DNA from: a virus
Lineage: Duplodnaviria > Heunggongvirae > Uroviricota > Caudoviricetes
Virus record (IMG/VR): IMGVR_UViG_2695420643_000009
Direction: 5' to 3' (one strand)
DNA: 23,161 bases
Shown here: positions 123 to 15,984 of the stretch, piece by piece
Numbering within the stretch: position 1 is the stretch's first letter
Layout: the number at the start of each line of letters is the position of its first letter
Notes under the pieces: generated by a model
The model's database searches: none
What the model was told of the DNA's origin: nothing
What the model saw: the letters and a program-made list of their open reading frames with translations, nothing else
Program-made: the position numbers and the translations under genes

Positions 123-527
123 ATGGATCAGGTCGTTGTTTTTCAAAAGATGTTTGAGCAAGTGAGAAAAGAGCAAAACTTCTCCTGGTTTTATTCAGAA
201 TTAAAACATCACCGTATTGCACATTACATTTATTATCTGGCTACGGATAACATCAGAATTATTACTCACGATGACACGGTTTTGTTATTAAGAGGAACCA
301 GGAACCTGTTAAAAGTTAGTACGACCAAGAACCCTGCTAAAATAAAAGAGGCCGCATTGCTTCATATTTGCGGAAAATCTACATTTCGGGAATACTGTTC
401 AACACTAGCAGGCGCGGGCGTTTTCCGGTGGGTTACTGATGTTAATCATAACAAACGCAGTTACTACGCCATTGATAATACGCTTTTATATATTGAAGAT
501 GTAGAAAATAATAAACCATTAATCTAG
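123..527 (+). CDS. ycgX: DUF1398-family protein YcgX (chromosomal, function unknown)
   Basis: 134-aa ORF MDQVVVFQKMFEQVRKEQNF...; matches my recollection of E. coli YcgX in length and sequence, and sits next to iraM as in K-12. AAGAGG RBS 11 nt upstream of the ATG. Confidence 0.8.
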   Translation: MDQVVVFQKMFEQVRKEQNFSWFYSELKHHRIAHYIYYLATDNIRIITHDDTVLLLRGTRNLLKVSTTKNPAKIKEAALLHICGKSTFREYCSTLAGAGVFRWVTDVNHNKRSYYAIDNTLLYIEDVENNKPLI

Positions 528-2046: not shown

Positions 2047-2880
2047 TTATTTCTGTAATCGGTTTATATTAACGTAAAGCATCTCGATTAGTTCTTTTGC
2101 ATTTTTACTATAGTGCAATTCTCTATGGCAATTCGGACAAAGGGCAACACAGTTATCTGTTGTATCAGCACCACCTGAAGACAGGGGAATTACATGATGC
2201 ACTTCCAAATATGGGTTTCCATCATTTAAATAAAACGGAGCATTTTTACCACAGTTTTCACATATACCTTTACTTTGCTGTAAAATCCAAGCTTTTACCA
2301 TCGGGTCTCGGACATAAACTTTTTGTAGTCTTTCTACCTCAACTGGTTTCCTGGAGCCCTCGGGTTGACTCAACGTTTTCTTAATTAATTTACTAACCCT
2401 CATATTCAGAAGCGATTCATCATCTGTAGGCTGTGAAAGCTCTGATAGTTCTCCACGTATTATAGACGCCCAAAAACTGTCACTATAAATACCTGGAACA
2501 TTTATCAATATTCGTTTCGTTCTATTGCCGGAAGGAATTTCCTTTCTCCCCGTACGACTAAAATAAGCCTGATAACCACACATCTTCAAGCGTATATCGC
2601 GGGGGCTATTACCAATCAAAGTAAAATATTCACCAGGATGGATTTTTCTTTCATCCAAAGAATGCATATGTTTTCTGACTGATGATGACGCCAGATATAC
2701 TACGACTTGGGATACACCAGAATCAACCAACCGTTCAATGATATAATCAAGAGCGATATTGTAATCTTTGTTTCTGTCACCCGGCCCCCACGACTCAAGG
2801 ATTAGACCATAAACACCATCCTCTTCACCTATCGAACACTCAGCTTTCAGTTCAATTCCATTGTTATCAAAAACATGCAT
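2047..2880 (-). CDS. mcrA: McrA, 5-methylcytosine-specific restriction endonuclease (HNH nuclease)
   Basis: 277-aa ORF; C-terminal HNH/zinc motif CENCGK...EVHHVIPLSSGGADTTDNCVALCPNCH visible; length and sequence match my recollection of K-12 McrA; position (phage end next to pin) as in e14. Confidence 0.9.
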   Translation of the reverse strand: MHVFDNNGIELKAECSIGEEDGVYGLILESWGPGDRNKDYNIALDYIIERLVDSGVSQVVVYLASSSVRKHMHSLDERKIHPGEYFTLIGNSPRDIRLKMCGYQAYFSRTGRKEIPSGNRTKRILINVPGIYSDSFWASIIRGELSELSQPTDDESLLNMRVSKLIKKTLSQPEGSRKPVEVERLQKVYVRDPMVKAWILQQSKGICENCGKNAPFYLNDGNPYLEVHHVIPLSSGGADTTDNCVALCPNCHRELHYSKNAKELIEMLYVNINRLQK

Positions 2881-2986: not shown

Positions 2987-3541
2987 TTATTTATCCCCTG
3001 CAGGAAACCTCTTATACAAAGTTGACACACCAACATCATAGATAATCGCCACCTTCTGGCGAGGAACTCCTGATGCAATTAATCGTCCGGCCTGTTCCCA
3101 TTGTTCTGGTGTAAGTTTGGGACGACGTCCACCAATTCGTCCCTGTGCGCGAGCAGCTTCCAGTCCAGCTTTTGTTCTTTCAACAATCAGTTCACGCTCC
3201 ATTTCAGCCAGGGCACCCATCACATGAAAGAAAAAGCGCCCCATTGGGGTACTGGTATCAATTGAATCCGTCAGACTACGAAAGTTGATGCCTCGTTCGC
3301 GCAACTCCTCCACCAGCACGACAAGATGCCGCATACTGCGCCCTAGTCGGTCCAGTTTCCAGACCACCAGCGTATCACCTGCCGATAATGTCCTGAGCAG
3401 TTTTTTCAGTCCCGGCCTTTCGGACTTTGTACCGCTTATCTTGTCTTCAAAAATCAGCTCGCATCCTGCACAGTTCAGCGCATTACGTTGTAGATCTGTG
3501 TTCTGGTCATTTGTTGACACACGTACATAGCCAATAAGCAT
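2987..3541 (-). CDS. pinE: Pin DNA invertase (serine recombinase, Gin/Hin/Cin/Pin family)
   Basis: MLIGYVRVSTNDQNTDLQRNAL... with the catalytic-serine motif GYVRVST and a C-terminal HTH; 184 aa from the ATG at 3541, which has a GGGAG RBS 8 nt upstream. The ORF track's longer 196-aa start at 3577 has no RBS. Confidence 0.9.
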   Translation of the reverse strand: MLIGYVRVSTNDQNTDLQRNALNCAGCELIFEDKISGTKSERPGLKKLLRTLSAGDTLVVWKLDRLGRSMRHLVVLVEELRERGINFRSLTDSIDTSTPMGRFFFHVMGALAEMERELIVERTKAGLEAARAQGRIGGRRPKLTPEQWEQAGRLIASGVPRQKVAIIYDVGVSTLYKRFPAGDK

Positions 3542-3567
3542 GGTAGATCTCCCTGACAAAAGCAGGA

Positions 3568-4119
3568 ATGATGCCATTTGCTCGTTATTTCTGCATTTTC
3601 ATAAACGTTGGTTTGGGAGAAGGTTCGGCATTACCCGTTGGCGTGCCTGTTCCGTGGCCTTCCGCCACTCCGCCAACAGGCTGGCTGAAATGCAACGGTG
3701 CCGCTTTTTCTGCTGAAGAATACCCGGAACTGGCAAAGGCTTATCCGACAAATAAATTGCCTGATTTACGTGGTGAGTTTATTCGTGGCTGGGATGACGG
3801 GCGTGGAGTGGATAGCGGTCGTACTTTATTAACGAATCAAGAGCATGCAGTAATTTCTCATAATCATGGAATACCTACAAAAGTGGGGTCAGTTACTAAT
3901 ATCCCGTATGGAATAGAACAGGTTATATCTGATGAAACCATTTTTTCATCAGCAAAAACAGTTGGTGTGGATTACTGGTCTAACAGTGAGCGAGTTTTTA
4001 CTTATACCACTGGTGGAAGAAATGGTGCTGAATCAGTGAGTTCACCTGATGCCTCCTCTTTAATTAAAGAAACCAGACCACGGAACCTGGCATTTGCGTA
4101 TATCGTGAGGGCTGCATAA
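3568..4119 (+). CDS. stfE: Promoterless tail-fibre C-terminal (variable) cassette, stfE-like, duplicate copy A; lacks the constant N-terminal fibre domain
   Basis: 183-aa ORF whose residues from [32 protein letters not shown] to AYIVRAA are identical to the C-terminal 150 aa of the expressed fibre 6024..6824. DNA identity checked at several points. Confidence 0.55.
   Translation: MMPFARYFCIFINVGLGEGSALPVGVPVPWPSATPPTGWLKCNGAAFSAEEYPELAKAYPTNKLPDLRGEFIRGWDDGRGVDSGRTLLTNQEHAVISHNHGIPTKVGSVTNIPYGIEQVISDETIFSSAKTVGVDYWSNSERVFTYTTGGRNGAESVSSPDASSLIKETRPRNLAFAYIVRAA
3596..3621 (+). promoter_or_regulatory. pixL: 26-bp Pin crossover site (TTTTCATAAACG-TT-GGTTTGGGAGAA)
   Basis: Imperfect dyad with the same 12-2-12 architecture as gix (TTCCTGTAAACC-GA-GGTTTTGGATAA, from memory); lies between pin and the cassette; inverted-repeat identity with pixR starts exactly at the central dinucleotide (3608). 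Confidence 0.6.
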
Positions 4120-4550
4120 TGGATTACGCTGTATTAAATAACGAATTTATCGCCACCCAAGCAGGAAATATTACGGTTTATAACTATGATGGTGAAACAC
4201 GGGAATATATTTTCACATCAACTGAATATCTTGCTGTGGGTGTCGGCATTCCGGCATGTTCCTGTTTAGATGCTCCTGGCTCATACAAAACTGGGTATGC
4301 AATCTGCCGTTCTGCAGATTTTAACTCATGGGAATATGTGCCAGACCATCGTGGTGAAATCGTCTTTAGCACAGAAACAGGAGAATCAAAAGAAATCAAA
4401 GCTCCGGGTGATTACCCTGAAAATACAACCACTATCGCCCCTTTATCTCCATACGATAAATGGGATGGTGAGAAATGGGTAACCGATACTGAGGCACAGC
4501 ATAGCGCCGCAGTAGACGCGGCAGAAGCACAGCGCCAGTCACTGATTGAT
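3608..4550. repeat. Inverted repeat copy A (943 bp): stfE variable cassette plus first 144 codons of tfaE
   Basis: Perfect identity to the reverse complement of 5593..6535 wherever I spot-checked (boundaries, 4081..4140 vs 6001..6060, 4201..4260 vs 5881..5940); translated ORFs are identical. Confidence 0.85.
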
Positions 4551-4607
4551 TGGTTTGGGAGAAGCGGCAAAAAGGAATGTGGGCAACGGGGAAAACCAAA
4601 TCCCTGA
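4119..4607 (+). pseudogene. Truncated tail-fibre assembly gene: tfaE N-terminal 144 codons fused to 17 unrelated codons (WFGRSGKKECGQRGKPNP*)
   Basis: Identical to TfaE (5422..6024) through ...AEAQRQSLID, then diverges at 4551, where the sequence becomes the right half of a pix site. Confidence 0.6.
4538..4563 (+). promoter_or_regulatory. pixM: hybrid pix-like site (GTCACTGATTGA-TT-GGTTTGGGAGAA) with a canonical right half and a tfaE-derived left half
   Basis: Right half and centre identical to pixL/pixR; left half is tfaE coding sequence; the inverted-repeat identity ends inside the central dinucleotide (4550/4551). Confidence 0.45.
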
Positions 4608-5004
4608 TATGTCTTTCTGGACGGTTACTGGTGGCAATGGAAATTTTGTGATTCGTCAACCTGACGGGCTAATCACTCAGATGGTTACTGTAAGTATAAG
4701 CGGTCCAGTGGCGATGAATGGAATGACTGATAATGCTTATGCCATTACAGGTTCTAATAAGTCTTATATTGCCACAGCCACATTGCCCTTTGTATTTCCT
4801 AATAAGGTGCTGGGCGTTATCCCTCTGGTATCAACAACAGCCTATGGTGGTGTATCCAGTAATATTACAGGTTCATACGCGACGGCGGTTTGTTCTTTTG
4901 CCGCTGTCCGGGGGAATAATACGATTGTATTCAAAGTCGACAAACCACTGAATGCAGCCTTTCCTTCAGATACCAGCGTCTCAGCGTTAATCATTGGACG
5001 GTAA
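4549..5004 (+). CDS. Silent alternative tail-fibre variable cassette (Sv'); has no start of its own, would be fused in frame to the constant fibre domain after inversion
   Basis: Open frame ...IGLGEAAKRNVGNGENQIPDMSFWTV...VSALIIGR*. The GLGE codons (GGT TTG GGA GAA) are in the same phase as the GLGE at the Sc-Sv junction of the expressed fibre; followed directly by a tail-fibre assembly gene. Confidence 0.6.
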   Translation: MGLGEAAKRNVGNGENQIPDMSFWTVTGGNGNFVIRQPDGLITQMVTVSISGPVAMNGMTDNAYAITGSNKSYIATATLPFVFPNKVLGVIPLVSTTAYGGVSSNITGSYATAVCSFAAVRGNNTIVFKVDKPLNAAFPSDTSVSALIIGR

Positions 5005-5006
5005 TA

Positions 5007-5450
5007 ATGAACTCAGTATTCTTTTCACCCGGAAGTAAAAGTTTTTATCTACAAGAATTGTTTCCAGAATATGAGGATGCGGGAACGCTTCCAGATGATG
5101 TTATTGAAATTACCCGAGAAACATATGAGCAATTTCTTGGGCTGCATCCAGAAGGGAAAGAAATTGGCGCTGACAGTTCAGGACGGCCAATATGGATTAA
5201 TTCCCCACCGCCTTCAAAAGAGGATGAGGTGTTGATGGCTGAAATGAAAAAAATATCTTTGGTTTCAGAAGCCAATACCTACATCAATACCCATCAGTGG
5301 CCTGGCAAAGCTGCTATTGGTCGTCTGAAAGGTAACGAGCTGGAGCAATATAATTTATGGCTGGATTATCTGGACGCACTGGAACTGGTTGATCCCTCCA
5401 GTGCTCCAGATATTGAATGGCCTACGCCTCCGGCAGTTCAGGCCAGATGA
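5007..5450 (+). CDS. Tail-fibre assembly protein (alternative, tfaP-like), partner of the silent Sv' cassette
   Basis: 147-aa ORF MNSVFFSPGSKSFYLQELFPEYEDAG...IEWPTPPAVQAR; resembles the tail-fibre assembly chaperone family, including the C-terminal WP motif region; starts 3 nt after the Sv' stop; converges on tfaE. Confidence 0.7.
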   Translation: MNSVFFSPGSKSFYLQELFPEYEDAGTLPDDVIEITRETYEQFLGLHPEGKEIGADSSGRPIWINSPPPSKEDEVLMAEMKKISLVSEANTYINTHQWPGKAAIGRLKGNELEQYNLWLDYLDALELVDPSSAPDIEWPTPPAVQAR

Positions 5451-6024
5451 CATTCGGCGCGGTGCTGGTATCTGTTGCCGTCACCGCGTCAATGTAATCC
5501 AGCACAGCGTTAAGCTGGGTTGTTTCTGCCTGCGTCAGTTTCCGTCCGGCCTGTAATTTCAGCTGAATCAGACTGATGGAAGCCATTGCAGCATCAATCA
5601 GTGACTGGCGCTGTGCTTCTGCCGCGTCTACTGCGGCGCTATGCTGTGCCTCAGTATCGGTTACCCATTTCTCACCATCCCATTTATCGTATGGAGATAA
5701 AGGGGCGATAGTGGTTGTATTTTCAGGGTAATCACCCGGAGCTTTGATTTCTTTTGATTCTCCTGTTTCTGTGCTAAAGACGATTTCACCACGATGGTCT
5801 GGCACATATTCCCATGAGTTAAAATCTGCAGAACGGCAGATTGCATACCCAGTTTTGTATGAGCCAGGAGCATCTAAACAGGAACATGCCGGAATGCCGA
5901 CACCCACAGCAAGATATTCAGTTGATGTGAAAATATATTCCCGTGTTTCACCATCATAGTTATAAACCGTAATATTTCCTGCTTGGGTGGCGATAAATTC
6001 GTTATTTAATACAGCGTAATCCAT
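5422..6024 (-). CDS. tfaE: Tail-fibre assembly protein TfaE
   Basis: 200-aa [28 protein letters not shown]...VIWPELPEA; start overlaps the fibre stop; matches my recollection of e14 TfaE (200 aa). Confidence 0.85.
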   Translation of the reverse strand: MDYAVLNNEFIATQAGNITVYNYDGETREYIFTSTEYLAVGVGIPACSCLDAPGSYKTGYAICRSADFNSWEYVPDHRGEIVFSTETGESKEIKAPGDYPENTTTIAPLSPYDKWDGEKWVTDTEAQHSAAVDAAEAQRQSLIDAAMASISLIQLKLQAGRKLTQAETTQLNAVLDYIDAVTATDTSTAPNVIWPELPEA

Positions 6025-6535
6025 TATGCAGCCCTCACGATATACGCAAATGCCAGGTTCCGTGGTCTGGTTTCTTTAATTAAAGAGGAGGCATCAGGTG
6101 AACTCACTGATTCAGCACCATTTCTTCCACCAGTGGTATAAGTAAAAACTCGCTCACTGTTAGACCAGTAATCCACACCAACTGTTTTTGCTGATGAAAA
6201 AATGGTTTCATCAGATATAACCTGTTCTATTCCATACGGGATATTAGTAACTGACCCCACTTTTGTAGGTATTCCATGATTATGAGAAATTACTGCATGC
6301 TCTTGATTCGTTAATAAAGTACGACCGCTATCCACTCCACGCCCGTCATCCCAGCCACGAATAAACTCACCACGTAAATCAGGCAATTTATTTGTCGGAT
6401 AAGCCTTTGCCAGTTCCGGGTATTCTTCAGCAGAAAAAGCGGCACCGTTGCATTTCAGCCAGCCTGTTGGCGGAGTGGCGGAAGGCCACGGAACAGGCAC
6501 GCCAACGGGTAATGCCGAACCTTCTCCCAAACCAA
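5593..6535. repeat. Inverted repeat copy B (943 bp): expressed stfE variable region plus tfaE N-terminal part
   Basis: Reverse complement identical to 3608..4550 (see copy A). Confidence 0.85.
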
Positions 6536-6824
6536 GGTTTTCGAGAGCTGTTTTCACCGTGCCATCCGATTTGATATCGCCAAACGGATTCTTGCGGCTT
6601 AACAGCAGCGCACGAAGCGCGGTAAGCAACTGGTCGTGCCGCGCCTTCTCCAGGCTGGCACCGGATGCCTCCACCACGCTGCAGAGTTCTTCCTGCAACA
6701 TATCAAAGTAGTCATCATCCAGATCGGTGGCAGGCGTGCCAGTCTGGGGGTTACCACGGGTAAAACCGTTCTTACCCACGCCGAACTTATCCTTCTGCGC
6801 GGTTTTCGTGTCTATACGATGCAT
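6024..6824 (-). CDS. Side tail-fibre protein: constant N-terminal domain (about 116 aa) fused at a GLGE junction to the stfE-type variable C-terminal domain; currently the expressed fibre
   Basis: 266-aa [24 protein letters not shown]...; GGAG RBS 7 nt upstream; start 3 nt after the ymfQ stop; C-terminal half is duplicated at 3608..4119. Confidence 0.85.
6522..6547 (-). promoter_or_regulatory. pixR: 26-bp Pin crossover site inside the fibre gene (minus strand CTCTCGAAAACC-TT-GGTTTGGGAGAA)
   Basis: Near-palindromic; same right half as pixL but on the opposite strand (inverted orientation, as inversion requires); encodes the ...ENLG-LGE junction of the fibre. Confidence 0.6.
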
Positions 6825-7412: not shown

Positions 7413-8461
7413 GAAATCGTCCCCAGTACCGCCAGTTCGTTTTTCGCAATGGAGATATTGTCCACCGGTGCAAGCAACTGATGGCTGTATTCCCCGTTCG
7501 CACCGGAAATCGCCTCACTGATACGCGATACCTTCAGTTCTCCCTGCGGATAACCATCACGCAGCAGGAACGAACGCAACTCCGCGGTAATGGCAGCCCG
7601 TATTTCCGGTGTGTCCGGCGTCACGCGGATATGAAAATCCACTTTATGCGCCACCGGCCTGAATACATACAAATCAGAGCCTGCCACCGGGGCCAGTGGC
7701 TCAATGTGTTGTCTTGCCGCCGTTTCCGTTGATTCTTCCGGAATGGGATTAATCAGGTCACTGCTGGCAATCATCACACCGACAGTTCCCGTTCCCATCC
7801 AGTGACGGTATGTCCATGCGCGGGTAATGCCGGGCACTTCTTTAGCCCAGACGACATAGTCCCCGTCAGCCCCGCCCTGAGGCGTCCAGTAATACCGCTC
7901 AATGACGCGGGCGCGCCACGTTTCCAGCTCTTCAGTATCAAATCCACCTGTCAGGGTATCTGCCACGCCGGAAGACGGCAGACCATTAACCGGCGTGACC
8001 AGGATTAATGACGTACCGTCGTCAGCGTTACCGACCGCGCCTGCACTTGAGCAGGCGATCGGCACGCGCAGGACACCACCGGAGCTGGTTGCATCGGCAG
8101 TTGCCGTGTACTGAACCAGGTCATCGCGCTGAATAACACTCCCGGCGGTCACCTTCAGGCCATCGCTGACACCTTCCCAGCGCATATACCCGCTGGCAGC
8201 CGTGGCCCCCTTGCGCGGACACCGTTTCATCGCAGCATGTCGCGCCAGCCAGGACTCATCGCACAGGTCAGGCAGCATGTTCATTGCCAGATAATCGATG
8301 TACCCGTAAACCGTATGCAGCGCCGCCGCATACACCTTTGCCCGCACGTCTTCATCCATGCGCCGGAGCGTGTCGCTGACGTCCAGCCTGGCGAATAAAT
8401 CGTTACGGAGCATACTGATATTTTCTGCCAGCGTCGGGCGCTGAAATTCACTGTCCGCCAT
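7403..8461 (-). CDS. Baseplate J-like protein (Mu gp47-like; full-length counterpart of the e14 jayE fragment)
   Basis: 352-aa ORF; position between gp46-like and ymfQ-like genes; baseplate-J family resemblance. Confidence 0.8.
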
Positions 8462-11885: not shown

Positions 11886-13721
11886 TTACCTGCCAAAGCG
11901 CGTATAGCCAACATCATGGCTGACATCAAAACCGCTGGATCGCGTTTCCATAACCCGCATACCCGGAGGCGAATTCACAAAAGAGACCTTGATCTCACCA
12001 TCAACTTTTGGCGCAGAAGCTTTGTTAATCATGAAGGGATTCGGGCCTGTGGCATCGGAGGCGTTGTTTGACTGAGCCGGATCTACCGCCTGATAAGGTG
12101 TGTATCCCCGTGCCGGTATTCCCGTCCCATAAGCATCATAAGCACCCGCGCCCCACTGCGCAGAGTTAATGGCATCGACCGTGTCACCGGAACTGTCGGT
12201 AAACCACTCAATAATTGGCTTCAGCTTGTCCCACATATCCTGAAACCACTTAACAACCGGTCCCCAGTTATTGATTACCATCCCCAGCGGCGACCAGGCA
12301 AAAACCTTCTTCAGAAGTTCCCAGCCAGCCTCAAAATAAGGACCAATGGTTTCCCAGAGCTTCTTGAAATAAGGTCCGACAACATCCCAGTTAGTGATAA
12401 TTAATCCCGCAGCCAGGGCTATCGCCGTCGCAATCATTCCAATCGGCGTCATCGACATGATCCTGCTGACAATACTGATGGCACCGCCAACGCCCATCAA
12501 TCCCAGTTTCAGAATCGCAAGACCGGCAGCAAGCCCGACGACGCCGCGAATAACCCGGGGATTTTCATCCGCAAACTTCGTGAATTTTTCCCCCAACTCC
12601 CCCAGCCATTGCGTGATATTTTTAGCGTCACCAGAAAATGCGCCGCCAATAGCTGCAAGACCGTTAGTTGCGGTCCCCGTCATTGCCTCCCACAGGTTGG
12701 ACAGCGTACCAAGCTGTGCCTGAACACGTTTATTCAGGCTGGCCTGTTTATTCATCTTCTGCTGGATCTGATCGTAACCATCCTTTCCTTTATCGATCAG
12801 AGCATTGACCACCTGAAGGGTTTCGGCATCATCACCAAATATTGCCTTAAGTACACCTGTTCGCTTAACGTCGGTCAGTTTTCGCAGCTTTGCCAGTTGC
12901 TTAAACATGTTATCAAGACCGCCAAAACTCCCTTTGCCGTCAGTAAAATCGAGCTGCACTCCGAGTTTCTGGCGGGCCATGACTTTATTGACGTCCCTGA
13001 TTTTCTTAACGCTTAATCCGGACTGGATAACTTTTCGCAGGGCATTACCTGCCGACTCCCCGTTCATCCCCATCTGATCCATCATGACGCTGATAGGGGC
13101 AAGGCTCTGTGCAGCCTGAAGACCGTCCTTATTCACCATCTTCAGAACAGAACTGGTTTTAGTGAAGAAGGACAACATGTTGGTATCGTCAACGCCCAGA
13201 TAAAACGCCTTCTGGATAGTATCGAACAGCCCCATCATGTCTTCTGAGGCCGTTCCGGTAGCATCCTGCATCTTTGCTGCAAACTCAGCAGCCGCTTCCG
13301 GTGTTTTTTTCAGTTGTACCGCAAGATAAGCTGTCGCTTTACCCACACCACCCAGGATGTTTTCTGCCGGGATCCCCTGACGCACCAGCATCTGCATCAT
13401 GTTCTGGAAATCAGCCGTTGTACCGGGTAGCTGGTTACCCAGGCCAATAGCCAGTTTATTGATGTCCTGAAAGCGCTTTCCAACCTCGCCGTTCGCATCC
13501 ATCATGGCGACTTTCAGCCCGGTAGCGGCGTTTTCCTGATCGGCATAAGATTTCAGGGAAAGCGTCAGCCCCGCTGCCAGTCCGCCACCAAGCGCCAGCC
13601 CACCCTGTGACGCTTCTTCCGCCTGGCGTTTAAATCCCCGGATTTTCTTTTGCATTTTCGACAGCGCGGGAGAAAGCCTGTCGACACCGGTGATCAACGC
13701 CTTAAGCTCAAATTCAGCCAT
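11886..13721 (-). CDS. Tail tape measure protein
   Basis: 611-aa ORF; Ala/Gly-rich helical sequence with hydrophobic segments (GVVGLAAGLAILKLGLMGVGGAISIV...) and a Trp-rich C-terminal region; position after the chaperone pair. Confidence 0.85.
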   Translation of the reverse strand: MAEFELKALITGVDRLSPALSKMQKKIRGFKRQAEEASQGGLALGGGLAAGLTLSLKSYADQENAATGLKVAMMDANGEVGKRFQDINKLAIGLGNQLPGTTADFQNMMQMLVRQGIPAENILGGVGKATAYLAVQLKKTPEAAAEFAAKMQDATGTASEDMMGLFDTIQKAFYLGVDDTNMLSFFTKTSSVLKMVNKDGLQAAQSLAPISVMMDQMGMNGESAGNALRKVIQSGLSVKKIRDVNKVMARQKLGVQLDFTDGKGSFGGLDNMFKQLAKLRKLTDVKRTGVLKAIFGDDAETLQVVNALIDKGKDGYDQIQQKMNKQASLNKRVQAQLGTLSNLWEAMTGTATNGLAAIGGAFSGDAKNITQWLGELGEKFTKFADENPRVIRGVVGLAAGLAILKLGLMGVGGAISIVSRIMSMTPIGMIATAIALAAGLIITNWDVVGPYFKKLWETIGPYFEAGWELLKKVFAWSPLGMVINNWGPVVKWFQDMWDKLKPIIEWFTDSSGDTVDAINSAQWGAGAYDAYGTGIPARGYTPYQAVDPAQSNNASDATGPNPFMINKASAPKVDGEIKVSFVNSPPGMRVMETRSSGFDVSHDVGYTRFGR

Positions 13722-13881
13722 GTGTGCGTTTCTCCTGCTCTATCCTGTTTGCCTGACTGACCAGCAAGGGAATTTCACTGATCGGCATATTCAGCAATTC
13801 GAAGGGATTAATGCGCCAGTAGCTGGCGCAGTCAAAGAAGCGATCAGTGAGGTATTCAGCCGTCAGGCCTGGAGGAAAAAA
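13714..13881 (-). CDS. Frameshift extension (T part) of the tail assembly chaperone; expressed only as a G-T fusion by -1 frameshifting
   Basis: -1 frame relative to 13863..14132; slippery heptamer T-TTT-TTC (plus-strand 13875..13881 GAAAAAA) at the start of the overlap; ORF runs to a stop at 13714 overlapping the tape-measure start. Confidence 0.55.
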   Translation of the reverse strand, partial: FFPPGLTAEYLTDRFFDCASYWRINPFELLNMPISEIPLLVSQANRIEQEKRTHG

Positions 13882-14132
13882 CCAGCCACAAGCCACGCCG
13901 CTGCATTCAGGTCTGCCGGAGACATCTGGTCGACAGAGCTTTGCGGCACTTTCGCCAGCCGCACAATGTATTTCGACACCACATGCGCCAGAAGTCTGAC
14001 GGACTCATCCTGATTCATCTGGTAGGGATACCCCAGCTCGCGGACATCCTTCCCGGTGGGTTCATCAAACTCCAGTACGGAGAGTGTCTCGCCATGAGCA
14101 ATAATCGGTTTCTTTAACTCAAGCTCTTTCAT
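13863..14132 (-). CDS. Tail assembly chaperone (gpG-like)
   Basis: 89-aa ORF between the tail tube and tape measure genes; ATGA overlap with the tube gene; ends ...AGFFLQA* over the slippery site. Confidence 0.7.
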   Translation of the reverse strand: MKELELKKPIIAHGETLSVLEFDEPTGKDVRELGYPYQMNQDESVRLLAHVVSKYIVRLAKVPQSSVDQMSPADLNAAAWLVAGFFLQA

Positions 14133-14488
14133 TACTGGTAATCCCCTTCTTCACCGTGGAACTCAAGATCAACCGTGCCTTCTTCGGCATTATGGTTCGC
14201 TTCGCCGTGCAGCCAGGCAGACGACAATACATAGACCTGACCGTTCGCCAGCTCGGCAGTGATGGTCATCTCAACAGACGAGGTGATTTTGCTCACCGGA
14301 AAATTCTTCGGCACCTTGAAGGTTCCTTTGACATAAGGCGCGCGGTGAGTTTCCTTGCGGTCCACTGAACCATCCAGACCGATGATGTCATCGTTAACCG
14401 TTTTGTTCATGGGCACCTCAATGCCGCCGGTCAGCGATAGCTGCTGACCGTCAATTTTGAAATAACAGGTTCCCCCGATACGGGCCAT
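14132..14488 (-). CDS. Tail tube protein (Mu gpM-like)
   Basis: 118-aa ORF immediately after the sheath gene with ATGA overlap. Confidence 0.7.
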   Translation of the reverse strand: MARIGGTCYFKIDGQQLSLTGGIEVPMNKTVNDDIIGLDGSVDRKETHRAPYVKGTFKVPKNFPVSKITSSVEMTITAELANGQVYVLSSAWLHGEANHNAEEGTVDLEFHGEEGDYQ

Positions 14489-15984
14489 TATGCAGACTCC
14501 TCTGAATACTGAAGACGGAACTGGTTAACCACGGCAAAGACACGCAACTGGTTAACATAGTCAGGCGGGAACAGCGTGTTCAGGCGGTTCGGATCGCTGG
14601 CATCACGCTCCACAATCAGGTACTGCTTGAACAGTTCGTAGTTTTCCACGATCCCCGCACGCTCGAGCTGACGGTAGGTTGCCAGCAGTTCCCCTTTGAT
14701 CACCGCCGGGGTGACAATCGCCTGACCGGGACCAAAGCGGGTACCGTCACTGGCAAGCTTGTGACGCCCGTACTTACTGGTAATGACGGATTTCAGTTTG
14801 CGCAGTACATACGCGCTGGTATGCAGCGTCTCGCTGTCGAGGTAGCTGTTATCCGCAACACCGTAAGCGTTTTTCCTGTACGTGGTGACATCACGCTGAA
14901 TGCGCAGCACCCCGCTTTCGACATACGCCGTTGCCACGCCATGAGACAGCAGGGTCTGTTGTTCGGTCATCGTGAACCGTTTCCCCTTCGGCGCAGGCAG
15001 CATACCCACCAGCTCACCGGTCTGCGTGGGACGTGCCGGATCGTTGCGAATAAACACCGCTGCGCGGGCGGTACGGCTTGCCGCCAGCTCGTCGGCAGGC
15101 GTCTGGGTCTCTTTTTCGTATCCCGCCAGGGTAATGTGCTGCTGGTTAAACTGGTCACCTGCGGTCACCAGTTCTGACAGCGTGCCGATCTTTGCCGTGT
15201 ACACATGACCATACAGCTGACGCGCATAGCTCCAGCGACCGCTGGTATCGTTCATCTCGGTCACCAGCGTGTTAACGGAGGCCGTGTCGTTGAACGGCAG
15301 GCCGATATAATCAAACGGCTCATCCGCCATTGCAGCCACCGCGCCGGTGAGAACAGGAGCGCCCGTTCCGGCGGTACCCGTCGCCACGGCAATCTGTACG
15401 CCCGCTGGCAGCACTTCGCCCCCACCAAAGCCGTAGTAATTGAGGCTGACAGGAATTTCATTCCCGCAAAGCCCCTTATGACGCGCGGTCAGTGTGACCA
15501 CGCCTGCCGAAGATGAGGCAGTAAACGGCAGGGTCGGAACGGCATTGATGGCATCTTTGATACTGCTGGCAATCGTCGCGACGTTATCGCCGTTGGTCAC
15601 CGGTGCCTGCACGCGGGTACGTCCCACATAAACATTCACCGTGCCGGTTTCGGTTGCCGCGCCGGTCACCGTCAGCGTAACTGTTGCCGCCGCGCCCGTG
15701 GATTCAGGAACGGCAATCACATACAGTTCACCAAACGGGTCGGTCTGGCGATAAGCCTCGACCATACGCGCCAGCTGACTTCCCGCACCACAAATCTGGC
15801 GTGCATAGTCTGCCGACGGCATCAGCACCAGACTGTTGGCAACAATCTCTGCACCGTTATTGGCATGACCAATCAGCAGCGATGCTCCGCTGTCCTGTGC
15901 AGTATTCGCAGCCTGGTTATCCATTTCCGCATAAAACAGCGGAACCAGCGTATTCGACGGAATGGTGTTAAAGCTTATCGTCAT
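14488..15984 (-). CDS. Contractile tail sheath protein (Mu gpL-like)
   Basis: 498-aa ORF; size, position and sheath-family resemblance. Confidence 0.85.
   Translation of the reverse strand: MTISFNTIPSNTLVPLFYAEMDNQAANTAQDSGASLLIGHANNGAEIVANSLVLMPSADYARQICGAGSQLARMVEAYRQTDPFGELYVIAVPESTGAAATVTLTVTGAATETGTVNVYVGRTRVQAPVTNGDNVATIASSIKDAINAVPTLPFTASSSAGVVTLTARHKGLCGNEIPVSLNYYGFGGGEVLPAGVQIAVATGTAGTGAPVLTGAVAAMADEPFDYIGLPFNDTASVNTLVTEMNDTSGRWSYARQLYGHVYTAKIGTLSELVTAGDQFNQQHITLAGYEKETQTPADELAASRTARAAVFIRNDPARPTQTGELVGMLPAPKGKRFTMTEQQTLLSHGVATAYVESGVLRIQRDVTTYRKNAYGVADNSYLDSETLHTSAYVLRKLKSVITSKYGRHKLASDGTRFGPGQAIVTPAVIKGELLATYRQLERAGIVENYELFKQYLIVERDASDPNRLNTLFPPDYVNQLRVFAVVNQFRLQYSEESA

What the first reader, a model, noticed from the sequence alone, without database searches (positions are those of the whole stretch)
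13714..14132. Programmed -1 ribosomal frameshift in the tail assembly chaperone pair (gpG/gpGT-like)
The 89-aa chaperone ORF (13863..14132) and a 60-aa ORF in the -1 frame (13714..13896) overlap at a perfect slippery heptamer T-TTT-TTC on the coding strand (plus-strand 13875..13881 GAAAAAA), 9 nt before the G stop. Slipping gives ...AGFF-PPGLTAEY..., a fusion of about 140 aa that ends where the tape measure gene starts. This is the conserved arrangement between tail tube and tape measure genes in long-tailed phages.
Basis: partly seen in the sequence, partly recalled or inferred. Interest (0 to 1): 0.5.

Follow-up and report, generated by a model that had tools for sequence, protein, structure and literature searches.

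The report
Tail chaperone −1 frameshift, SfV-like prophage
This is an ordinary but real example of the programmed ribosome slip that long-tailed phages use to make a short and a long version of their tail assembly chaperone, found in an SfV-like prophage of E. coli where public annotation leaves it out.

Summary
On the minus strand an 89-aa tail assembly chaperone gene (13863..14132, Pfam PF10109) lies between the tail tube and tape measure genes. It carries an in-phase T_TTT_TTC heptamer (13881..13875) 9 nt before its stop. A −1 slip there gives a 139-aa fusion whose stop overlaps the tape measure ATG by 8 nt.

T_TTT_TTY sits at the same codons in 161 of about 170 distinct homologous loci, down to 38% protein identity. 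GGT and TTT are the only two of 30 amino-acid-invariant codon columns that never vary synonymously. The −1 segment evolves as coding sequence, and in 11 of 18 homologs it has no start codon of its own. The site is homologous to the annotated P2 E/E+E′ frameshift (T_TTT_TTG), not to Mu's −2 shift, although the surrounding tail genes are Mu-like.

No standard local stimulatory hairpin follows the heptamer. The 130 nt after it do fold into a long stem-loop (z about −4.5) that starts 6 nt downstream, and its apical hairpin shows frozen synonymous sites. Its role is unproven.

Verdict: a new member of a known kind, low interest, and an annotation gap in more than 1000 E. coli genomes.

The parts
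14488..15984 (-). Tail sheath gene (498 aa), first gene of the sheath-tube-chaperone-tape measure block
   Evidence: Pfam Phage_sheath_1, Phage_sheath_1C and Phage_sheath_domII; phrog_165, E = 2.5e-232.
14132..14488 (-). Tail tube gene (118 aa). Its TAA stop overlaps the chaperone ATG (TAATG).
   Evidence: Pfam PF10618 Tail_tube, E = 7e-33; sequence read.
13863..14132 (-). Zero-frame tail assembly chaperone ('G'-type product, 89 aa)
13875..13881 (-). Slippery heptamer T_TTT_TTC (codons GG[T TTT TTC], Gly84-Phe85-Phe86)
   Evidence: Kept in phase in all 20 intact loci from other genomes. Census of distinct loci: 144 T_TTT_TTC and 17 T_TTT_TTT. GGT and TTT are the only 2 of 30 amino-acid-invariant degenerate codon columns with a single codon in all 17 non-redundant sequences. 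U_UUU_UUC belongs to the class of motifs most efficient in E. coli (H_HH.U_UU.Y; PMC4066793).
13714..13875 (-). −1-frame 'T' segment (53 codons plus TGA). It is read only after the slip. Motif: FDCASYWRINP...QANRI.
   Evidence: phrog_32181, E = 4e-40. Codon-position bias, and the only frame without stops in 17 of 18 homologs (Derxia has all three open). No start codon of its own in 11 of 18 homologs. Aligns to P2 E′.
13714..14132 (-). Predicted frameshift fusion ('GT'-type product, 139 aa): join(14132..13875, 13875..13714) on the minus strand
   Evidence: The proportions (89 and 139 aa) match P2 E and E+E′ (91 and 142 aa).
11886..13721 (-). Tape measure gene (611 aa). Its ATG overlaps the fusion's stop by 8 nt (cATGGCTGA), the same geometry as in P2.
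   Evidence: PF10145 and phrog_28 / phrog_17727. The 8-nt overlap is seen in 15 of 21 loci and in P2 (E+E′ ends at locus position 858, T starts at 851).
13751..13868 (-). Candidate long stem-loop that spans most of the T segment. Closing helix: GCCUGAC (13868..13862, which contains the chaperone's UGA stop and starts 6 nt after the heptamer) with GUCAGGC (13757..13751). Inner helix: 13850..13841 with 13784..13775.
   Evidence: MFE −45 kcal/mol, z = −4.4 to −4.8. The operon background has mean z −0.71 and sd 1.25, with 2 of 231 windows at or below −4. Median z is −3.6 over 54 distinct clade sequences, and 51 of 54 have a long-range closing pair starting within +1 to +12. One register-switch covariation. 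However, the closing helix is perfect in only 61 of 89 sequences and is degraded in one subclade. Function unproven.
13812..13830 (-). Apical hairpin U-GCGCCAG-CUA-CUGGCGC-A inside the T segment (codons Cys-Ala-Ser-Tyr-Trp-Arg)
   Evidence: The stem is kept in 89 of 89 distinct clade sequences. Among 54 of these, stem synonymous sites are frozen (TGC 54/54, GCC 54/54, TAC 53/54, CGC 53/53), while the loop codon is free (AGC 24, AGT 29) and so are flanking codons. In a 46%-identical relative (L198) the two inner pairs are replaced and the stem is kept. An antisense ORF cannot explain this, because that ORF is broken in 74 of 89 homologs. The hairpin lies 45 nt from the heptamer, too far to be a classical stimulator on its own.

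Best explanation
The sheath, tube, chaperone and tape measure genes are probably read from one late transcript: no promoter-like or terminator-like site was found on the coding strand between them.

Most ribosomes translate the chaperone gene to its UGA and release the 89-aa product. A minority slip while decoding UUU (P site) and UUC (A site) at GG[U UUU UUC]. Both tRNA-Phe re-pair one base back on UUU UUU. Reading then continues in the −1 frame (CCU CCA GGC...) for 53 more codons, giving a 139-aa fusion.

By analogy with lambda gpG/gpGT and P2 E/E+E′, the shared N-terminal domain coats the tape measure protein. The C-terminal T domain, made only by the slip, recruits the tube protein. The slip rate therefore fixes the ratio of the two chaperone forms that correct tail assembly needs. 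Neither form ends up in the virion.

Shown here:
- the anatomy;
- family membership;
- selection on the heptamer at synonymous sites;
- coding constraint on the T frame;
- the lack of an independent start;
- homology of the site to the P2 site.

Inferred: that the fusion is made, its ratio to the short form, the binding partners, and whether the downstream stem-loop modulates the slip.
For: Anatomy.

Families of all four genes.

Operon context: no promoter-like site on either strand and no terminator-like site on the coding strand (one hit on the opposite strand, inside the tube gene) between sheath and tape measure.

Heptamer conservation: present in all 20 intact loci down to 38% identity, although the zero-frame stop moves from 9 to 42 nt downstream in these genome loci and sits 63 nt downstream in ST64B, SfIV and phiP27. 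Census of 144 T_TTT_TTC and 17 T_TTT_TTT.

Synonymous freezing: GGT and TTT are frozen, whereas the other 28 amino-acid-invariant degenerate columns all vary.

T frame: third-position excess, 1691 synonymous against 2761 non-synonymous differing codon pairs, and no stops in that frame only.

No start codon for T in 11 of 18 homologs.

The +1/−2 frame closes 10 nt after the stop.

Homology to P2: hhalign of the fusion against P2 E+E′ covers columns 4-130 against 7-135 at E = 2e-4, and VAGF|F aligns to VVGF|L. The P2 record annotates a −1 frameshift at the same GGT TTT TTG, with the same 8-nt overlap with T.

Literature: the conserved frameshift in tail assembly genes and its role in lambda and P2 (PMC5009743; PMC3091744). 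U_UUU_UUC is frameshift-prone in E. coli, at 0.12% alone and 7.6% with the IS3 pseudoknot (PMC4066793 supplement).
Against: There is no direct evidence of the fusion protein for this phage group.

In a reporter the bare motif gives only about 0.1% frameshifting, and no standard hairpin lies 5-9 nt downstream within 50 nt (z = +0.6). A useful rate therefore needs context effects that I could not establish.

A few close relatives carry altered sites: GGG TTT TTC in L171, L258 and L264, and GGG TTT TTT CTC in L227. Two have an in-frame fusion caused by an extra G (L033, L034). The canonical heptamer is therefore not absolutely required for a prophage to persist, or else those copies are defective or mis-sequenced.

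Public records do not annotate the joined product.
Confidence: 0.9

Rival explanations
1. Transcriptional slippage instead of ribosomal slippage. RNA polymerase adds one extra U on the T6 run, and normal translation of that U7 mRNA gives the identical 139-aa protein (GGU UUU UUU CCU...).
For: The site is a homopolymer. An added U gives exactly the same protein, so protein data alone cannot tell the two apart (sequence). The run and its edges are indel-prone in assemblies.
Against: Documented slippage by bacterial RNA polymerase is on runs of about 9 A or T (PMC5009743). Here the run is strictly 6 (7 when the last base is T) in 161 distinct loci and is never expanded. The homologous P2 site is annotated and described as translational. 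[quoted passage not shown]
Confidence: 0.05
2. Two separate genes. The 60-aa −1 ORF (13714..13896) is translated on its own from its GTG, as some GenBank records imply by calling it a 'hypothetical protein'.
For: ON470584 annotates it as a separate CDS. PHROGs holds it as a family of its own, phrog_32181. The window has a GTG 15 nt upstream of the heptamer.
Against: In 11 of 18 non-redundant homologs there is no ATG, GTG or TTG anywhere between the upstream −1-frame stop and 60 nt past the heptamer. No Shine-Dalgarno-like sequence was visible by eye in the 16 nt before the window's GTG, and that GTG merely overlaps the conserved Trp codon. The frozen synonymous sites of the heptamer would be left unexplained.
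Confidence: 0.03
3. No recoding at all. The heptamer simply reflects the conserved Gly-Phe-Phe residues, and the −1 open frame is a relic or a chance feature.
For: In-phase heptamers with long −1 extensions also occur at three shadow ORFs in this window. RefSeq leaves the 141 nt unannotated.
Against: Synonymous codon choice is frozen only at the heptamer. The T frame shows purifying selection and conserved motifs down to Derxia at 38% identity. A 141-nt non-coding gap would be unusual in this tightly packed operon, where neighbouring genes overlap by 1-8 nt.
Confidence: 0.02

Closest known systems
Phage P2 gpE / gpE+E′ (−1 frameshift at T_TTT_TTG in the FETUD tail operon)
   Same: - Same Pfam family, PF10109.
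- The fusion aligns end to end with E+E′ at E = 2e-4.
- The slip site lies at the same aligned codons: GGT TTT TTN, in the context V-x-G-F.
- Same product sizes: 89 and 139 aa against 91 and 142 aa.
- The same 8-nt overlap between the fusion's stop and the tape measure start.
- It sits between the tube and tape measure genes of a contractile tail.
- No obvious local stimulatory hairpin, as reported for P2 (PMC3091744).
   Different: - The last base of the heptamer is C, not G, so the A-site codon is Phe UUC rather than Leu UUG.
- The zero-frame stop lies 9 nt after the heptamer instead of 18 nt.
- Overall identity is only about 25%.
- The surrounding tail module is Mu-like, not P2-like.
- The P2 frameshift is annotated in its record and described in the literature as a −1 translational frameshift; this one is only inferred.
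Phage lambda gpG / gpGT (−1 frameshift at G_GGA_AAG)
   Same: Same logic and same position between the major tail gene and the tape measure gene. A short abundant chaperone and a rare fusion whose T domain binds the tail tube subunit. The ratio of the two is critical, and neither is present in virions (PMC5009743).
   Different: No detectable sequence similarity. A different heptamer and different tRNAs (Lys). Lambda has a non-contractile tail. The lambda ratio of about 30:1 has been measured, whereas nothing has been measured here.
Phage Mu gp41 (Mup41) chaperone with a −2 frameshift
   Same: The neighbouring genes in the window are Mu-like: Mu gp45, gp46, gp48 and GpP-type baseplate proteins, a DNA circularisation protein and the DUF2635 protein gp38. 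Pfam PF10109 names Mu gp41 in its description. The Mu T-like segment also ends just before its tape measure gene.
   Different: Mu has no in-phase X_XXY_YYZ heptamer. Its extension lies in the +1/−2 frame, in line with the reported −2 shift (PMC2628397; PMC5009743). In the window the +1/−2 frame closes 10 nt after the stop. Mu gp41 is 144 aa, against 89 aa here.
ST64B, SfIV and phiP27 chaperone genes (about 42% identical relatives)
   Same: Same gene order and the same −1 arrangement. A T_TTT_TTT heptamer sits at the homologous x-Phe-Phe codons, with a conserved T domain (YNxAxFW[RK][IL]NP).
   Different: The heptamer ends in T. The zero-frame product runs 63 nt further, giving 107-111 aa. The apical hairpin of the SfV clade is absent. 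These records do not annotate the frameshift either.

Membership tests
Conserved tail assembly chaperone frameshift pair (G/GT type; Xu, Hendrix and Duda 2004) | The gene pair lies directly between the major tail / tail tube gene and the tape measure gene | tested here: met
   Tube 14132..14488, chaperone 13863..14132, tape measure 11886..13721, all on the minus strand.
Conserved tail assembly chaperone frameshift pair (G/GT type; Xu, Hendrix and Duda 2004) | The downstream ORF overlaps the 3′ end of the first ORF in another frame and has no translation start of its own | tested here: met
   The −1 frame is open across the overlap in all 20 intact homologs. No ATG, GTG or TTG is available in 11 of 18.
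Conserved tail assembly chaperone frameshift pair (G/GT type; Xu, Hendrix and Duda 2004) | A slippery sequence in the correct phase lies inside the overlap and is conserved among relatives | tested here: met
   T_TTT_TTC at 13881..13875. Conserved. Synonymous sites frozen.
Conserved tail assembly chaperone frameshift pair (G/GT type; Xu, Hendrix and Duda 2004) | The extension encodes a protein domain under purifying selection | tested here: met
   Third-position excess, no stops in the −1 frame only, and conserved motifs. phrog_32181.
Conserved tail assembly chaperone frameshift pair (G/GT type; Xu, Hendrix and Duda 2004) | Both the short product and the fusion are made at a fixed ratio, and both are needed for tail assembly | not testable with these tools
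   This needs protein detection and phage genetics. No paper on it for SfV-like phages was found in the searchable library.
Pfam PF10109 Phage_TAC_7 (P2 E, Mu gp41, gp14) | The sequence scores above the curated gathering threshold | tested here: met
   55.3 bits against a cut-off of 25, covering residues 4-86. The precomputed Pfam label is PF10109 on all homologs listed.
P2 E/E+E′-type −1 site | The slip occurs at the homologous GGT TTT TTN codons, and the T part is homologous to E′ | tested here: met
   hhalign E = 2e-4 (probability 47%) over both parts, with the sites aligned. Support is moderate because P2 entered the comparison as a single sequence.
Tail assembly chaperone fold (for example HK97, PDB 2ob9; YqbN/XkdN-like, PDB 3klu) | The structural model matches solved chaperone structures | tested here: inconclusive
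Frameshift sites with a 3′ stimulatory RNA structure (dnaX and IS3 type) | A stable, conserved structure starts 5-9 nt after the heptamer, with covariation support | tested here: inconclusive
   There is no local hairpin within 50 nt (z = +0.6). A long-range stem-loop starts at +7, with z about −4.5. Covariation is limited to one register switch. The closing helix is degraded in 21-23 of 89 sequences. No Rfam match.
Mu-type −2 chaperone frameshift | The extension lies in the +1/−2 frame | tested here: not met
   The +1/−2 frame closes 10 nt after the chaperone stop in the window and in its clade. Mu itself shows the opposite pattern.

The most novel reading that the evidence does not exclude
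In the SfV-like clade, the slip rate is set by an unusually long RNA stem-loop of about 118 nt that spans nearly the whole T coding segment. Its closing helix begins 6 nt after the heptamer and contains the chaperone's own stop codon. Its apical hairpin (13830..13812) is held by selection at synonymous sites. Phage tail chaperone frameshifts are generally thought to work without a stimulator, so this would be a lineage-specific structured tuner of the ratio between the short form and the fusion. Alternatively, it could control translation of the tape measure gene.
Probability: 0.3. Interest if true: 0.45.

Novelty: new member of a known kind. Interest (0 to 1): 0.2.

Why it matters
The biology is textbook, so the main value is practical. 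The same 141-nt stretch is left unannotated, or is called a separate 'hypothetical protein', in SfV, SfI, SfII, SfIV, ST64B and phiP27. The same gap appears in the RefSeq E. coli record inspected, and similar DNA is present in 1100 of 5426 complete E. coli genomes. The joined product could be added to all of these with confidence.

The locus also shows that a Mu-like tail module can carry a P2-type −1 site rather than Mu's −2 site. The recoding device therefore travels with the chaperone gene, not with the tail type.

If the downstream stem-loop proves functional, it would be a rare case of a structured stimulator in this class of frameshift. It would also help explain how a heptamer that gives only about 0.1% frameshifting in reporters could reach a useful rate.

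Tried and rejected
- **Local hairpin within 45-60 nt of the heptamer.** Not better than shuffles (z = −0.05 to +0.6). This holds for most of the clade.
- **Upstream Shine-Dalgarno-like stimulator.** Reading the 45 nt upstream by eye showed no GGAG or AGGA, and the sequence there is not conserved. No formal scan was run.
- **Rfam.** No frameshift element. The only hit is a chance CRISPR-repeat match at E = 0.76.
- **RNAalifold on 11 clade sequences.** The covariation term was +0.08, which is no support. The fixed-register pair count was weak. Only a register-aware count on 54-89 sequences gave any signal.
- **'Fusion' proteins in the protein database (P0001-P0006).** These are singleton proteins with different indels, most likely assembly errors rather than natural fusions.
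- **Structure prediction of the fusion.** Only the short product was modelled.
- **PDB sequence search with the fusion profile.** Only an irrelevant hit at E = 0.026.
- **Reading Xu et al. 2004 and Christie et al. 2002.** Neither is held in the library. I could not check whether SfV was in their survey, so what I say about those papers rests on how other papers cite them.
- **Literature searches for this frameshift in SfV-like phages.** Nothing found.
- **Antisense ORF 13690..14013 (+) as the cause of the frozen codons.** Rejected, because it is broken in 74 of 89 homologs.
- **Pro-Pro-Gly directly after the slip as a conserved stall motif.** Rejected, because it is not conserved: relatives have PAG, PQG, PSG, PRD and SGL.
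Full report
**What is there**

The window is the late (virion) region of an SfV-like prophage of E. coli. The 1.1 kb around the finding is 100% identical to two E. coli chromosomes (MLI104K1 and KE58). It is about 98% identical to Shigella phages SfV, SfII and SfI, and similar DNA occurs in 1100 of 5426 complete E. coli genomes.

All the relevant genes lie on the minus strand, in this order:
- terminase, portal, protease and capsid;
- connector and terminator proteins;
- tail sheath (14488..15984);
- tail tube (14132..14488);
- an 89-aa ORF (13863..14132);
- tape measure (11886..13721);
- Mu-like baseplate genes.

The 89-aa protein belongs to Pfam PF10109, 'Phage tail assembly chaperone proteins, E, or 41 or 14', at 55 bits against a cut-off of 25. 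No promoter-like site (either strand) and no terminator-like site on the coding strand interrupt the sheath-to-tape-measure block; the only hit is a terminator-like hairpin on the opposite strand inside the tube gene.

**Checking the observation**

The coding strand reads ...GCT GGT TTT TTC CTC CAG GCC TGA. TTTTTTC therefore occupies 13881..13875 in the X_XXY_YYZ phase, 9 nt before the stop.

After a −1 slip the next codons are CCT CCA GGC CTG..., which encode PPGLTAEY.... The fusion is 86 + 53 = 139 aa. Its TGA overlaps the tape measure ATG by 8 nt (cATGGCTGA).

A heptamer of this type is not rare by itself. There are 81 per strand in the window. Three shadow ORFs also combine an in-phase heptamer with a long −1 extension. 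One sequence alone therefore proves little.

**Comparative evidence**

I fetched 21 loci from other species' genomes, ranging from Shigella to Derxia at 38% protein identity. One of them, from Serratia symbiotica, is a pseudogene. I also fetched several hundred viral contigs and reference phages.

1. **The heptamer is conserved.** All 20 intact genome loci keep T_TTT_TTC or T_TTT_TTT in phase at the same Gly-Phe-Phe codons. Meanwhile the zero-frame stop moves from 9 to 42 nt downstream in these loci, and it lies 63 nt downstream in ST64B, SfIV and phiP27. Over all distinct loci the census is 144 T_TTT_TTC, 17 T_TTT_TTT and 1 G_GGT_TTT, with a handful of exceptions.

2. **Its synonymous sites are frozen.** There are 30 codon columns with an invariant, degenerate amino acid. 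Only two of them use a single codon in all 17 non-redundant sequences: Gly84 (GGT) and Phe85 (TTT). Phe86 is TTC in 16 and TTT in 1, and both keep the site slippery. Third positions elsewhere in the gene differ in 57% of pairwise comparisons.

3. **The −1 segment is coding.** Pairwise differences per codon position are 0.33, 0.26 and 0.51. In 17 of 18 homologs the −1 frame is the only frame without stops; in GC-rich Derxia all three are open. The motif FDCA-YWRI-P...QANRI is conserved. The segment matches phrog_32181 at E = 4e-40.

4. **It has no start of its own.** In 11 of 18 non-redundant homologs there is no ATG, GTG or TTG from which the T segment could be initiated. The window's GTG at 13896 is incidental.

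5. **The +1/−2 frame is closed.** It ends 10 nt after the chaperone stop.

Together these results exclude three alternatives: chance, independent translation of the −1 ORF, and a Mu-type −2 shift.

**Relation to known systems**

The P2 record annotates gpE (91 aa) and gpE+E′ (142 aa). It places a −1 frameshift in ...GTC GGT TTT TTG TCG..., and its tape measure gene T starts 8 nt before the end of E+E′. A profile of 12 fusion sequences aligns with P2 E+E′ over both parts (columns 4-130 against 7-135, E = 2e-4, 25% identity). VAGF|F falls on VVGF|L. The site is therefore homologous to the P2 site, which the literature describes as a −1 translational frameshift at TTTTTTG (PMC3091744).

Mu is different. 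The neighbouring genes in the window resemble Mu's tail genes, but Mu has no in-phase heptamer and extends in the +1/−2 frame. This agrees with the reported −2 shift (PMC2628397; PMC5009743).

The functional model comes from work on lambda as summarised in PMC5009743. The shared domain binds the tape measure protein, the T domain recruits the tube subunit, and the ratio is set by the slip rate. For this locus that model is an inference.

In an E. coli reporter, U_UUU_UUC gives 0.12% frameshifting alone, 0.89% with the IS911 stimulators and 7.6% with the IS3 pseudoknot. P2's U_UUU_UUG gives 0.12%, 0.25% and 0.77% in the same series (PMC4066793 supplement). Yet P2 is reported to frameshift two to three times more than lambda. 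Native context clearly matters.

In the window the first 45-60 nt after the heptamer fold no better than shuffled sequence. By eye there is no Shine-Dalgarno-like sequence upstream, and there is no Rfam match.

The full 130 nt after the heptamer do fold into one long stem-loop of −45 kcal/mol, with z = −4.4 to −4.8. It has three parts:
- a closing helix, GCCUGAC (13868..13862, starting 6 nt after the heptamer and containing the UGA stop) paired with GUCAGGC (13757..13751);
- an inner helix, 13850..13841 paired with 13784..13775;
- an apical hairpin at 13830..13812.

Across the same operon, 130-nt windows have mean z −0.71 (sd 1.25), and only 2 of 231 reach −4. I chose the 130-nt length after seeing the alignment fold, so this comparison is not fully independent.

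Among 54 distinct clade sequences the median z is −3.6. A long-range closing pair starts within +1 to +12 in 51 of them.

Evidence for the individual helices is mixed:
- The closing helix is a perfect 7 bp, in one of two overlapping registers, in 61 of 89 distinct sequences. One coupled change switches register: C15:G130 becomes G15:C126, with G·U intermediates (Fisher p = 9e-6, uncorrected for relatedness).
- The same helix is degraded in a Pantoea/Erwinia-like subclade of 21-23 sequences.
- Distant clades have other structures or none.
- The apical hairpin is the solid part. It is kept in 89 of 89 sequences. Its four degenerate stem codons are frozen, while the loop codon (AGC 24, AGT 29) and the neighbouring codons vary freely. 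By my own hypergeometric calculation from the table, the chance of that pattern is about 1.5e-4.
- A 46%-identical relative keeps the hairpin stem with two different inner pairs.
- An antisense ORF does not explain the frozen codons.

The hairpin lies 45 nt from the heptamer. On its own it cannot act as a classical stimulator, so its function is open.

**Rivals**

Transcriptional slippage would give the same protein and cannot be excluded from sequence alone. However, the run is only 6-7 T and is never longer in 161 loci, whereas documented bacterial cases use runs of about 9.

Independent initiation and 'no recoding' are rejected by the results above.

**Exceptions worth knowing**

Three close relatives read GGG TTT TTC, and one reads GGG TTT TTT CTC. 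Two contigs carry an extra G that fuses the two frames permanently. These may be sequencing errors, defective prophages or tolerated variants.

**Novelty and verdict**

The kind is well known, and the homologous P2 site is annotated as a frameshift. None of the records I inspected annotates the joined product for this group, and I found no paper that describes it. I could not read Xu et al. 2004 to see whether SfV was in their survey.

I class it as a new member of a known kind. Confidence in the frameshift reading is about 0.9, and interest is low. The downstream stem-loop is the only element that could raise the interest.

Noticed in passing
window 2987..6824: A serine recombinase gene (2987..3577, minus strand; Resolvase plus HTH_7 domains) sits next to tail fibre and fibre-assembly ORFs arranged head to head. 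A perfect 948-nt inverted repeat (3603..4550 and 5593..6540, 100% complementary) flanks a 1042-nt segment. This looks like an invertible host-range cassette of the Mu G-segment or P1 C-segment type, but with unusually long and identical arms. An assembly artefact is not excluded.
   Followed up: partly
window 13812..13830 (minus strand): Hairpin GCGCCAG-CUA-CUGGCGC inside the T coding segment. Its stem synonymous sites are frozen in 89 distinct relatives, while the loop codon and flanking codons vary. It lies 45 nt from the heptamer, so it is not a classical stimulator. Its function is unknown: possibilities include RNA processing or stability, control of tape measure translation, or a DNA-level palindromic site.
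   Followed up: partly
L033, L034, L171, L227, L258, L264 (site homologous to window 13875..13883): Near-identical relatives differ exactly at the boundary between the G run and the T run. Two have GGG TTT TTT CCT, an extra G that fuses the two frames permanently. Three have GGG TTT TTC, which loses the first base of the heptamer. One has GGG TTT TTT CTC. These could be sequencing errors, defective prophages or tolerated variants.
   Followed up: partly
window 13722..13862 and the matching stretch in public records (L001, L003, L025-L027, L030-L032): The RefSeq E. coli record inspected (L001) and the phage records inspected leave about 141 nt (84-141 nt in the other phages) between the chaperone and tape measure genes unannotated. 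One GenBank record (L002) calls the stretch a separate hypothetical protein. Similar DNA occurs in 1100 of 5426 complete E. coli genomes. The joined frameshift product is missing from every record inspected.
   Followed up: yes
proteins P0001-P0006 (homologs of window 13714..14132): The protein database holds singleton 'fusion' proteins of 107-139 aa with different indels around the T run. They come from raw assemblies and are most likely homopolymer or assembly errors, not natural fusions.
   Followed up: yes
window 13867..13875 (minus strand): In this clade the first −1-frame codons after the slip encode Pro-Pro-Gly, a motif known to stall ribosomes without EF-P (from my own knowledge). It is not conserved in relatives, which have PAG, PQG, PSG or PRD, so it is probably incidental.
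   Followed up: partly
window 15416..15545 and 7941..8070 (minus strand): Two other 130-nt segments of the late operon fold much better than shuffled sequence (z = −5.4 and −5.2). One lies in the sheath gene and the other in the baseplate J gene. I did not examine them further.
   Followed up: no
window 123..527 and 2047..2880: A DUF1398 protein (plus strand) and an HNH endonuclease (minus strand) lie beyond the tail fibre cassette, at the edge of the prophage late region. I did not examine their roles.
   Followed up: no
L018, L024, L022, L023 (distant homologs): Some distant relatives have a strong local hairpin that starts 1-2 nt after the heptamer. In L018 it is GGGCUCG-GCGG-CGAGCCC, with a 50-nt fold of −21 kcal/mol and z = −2.6. 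Different lineages may therefore use different downstream structures, or none.
   Followed up: partly
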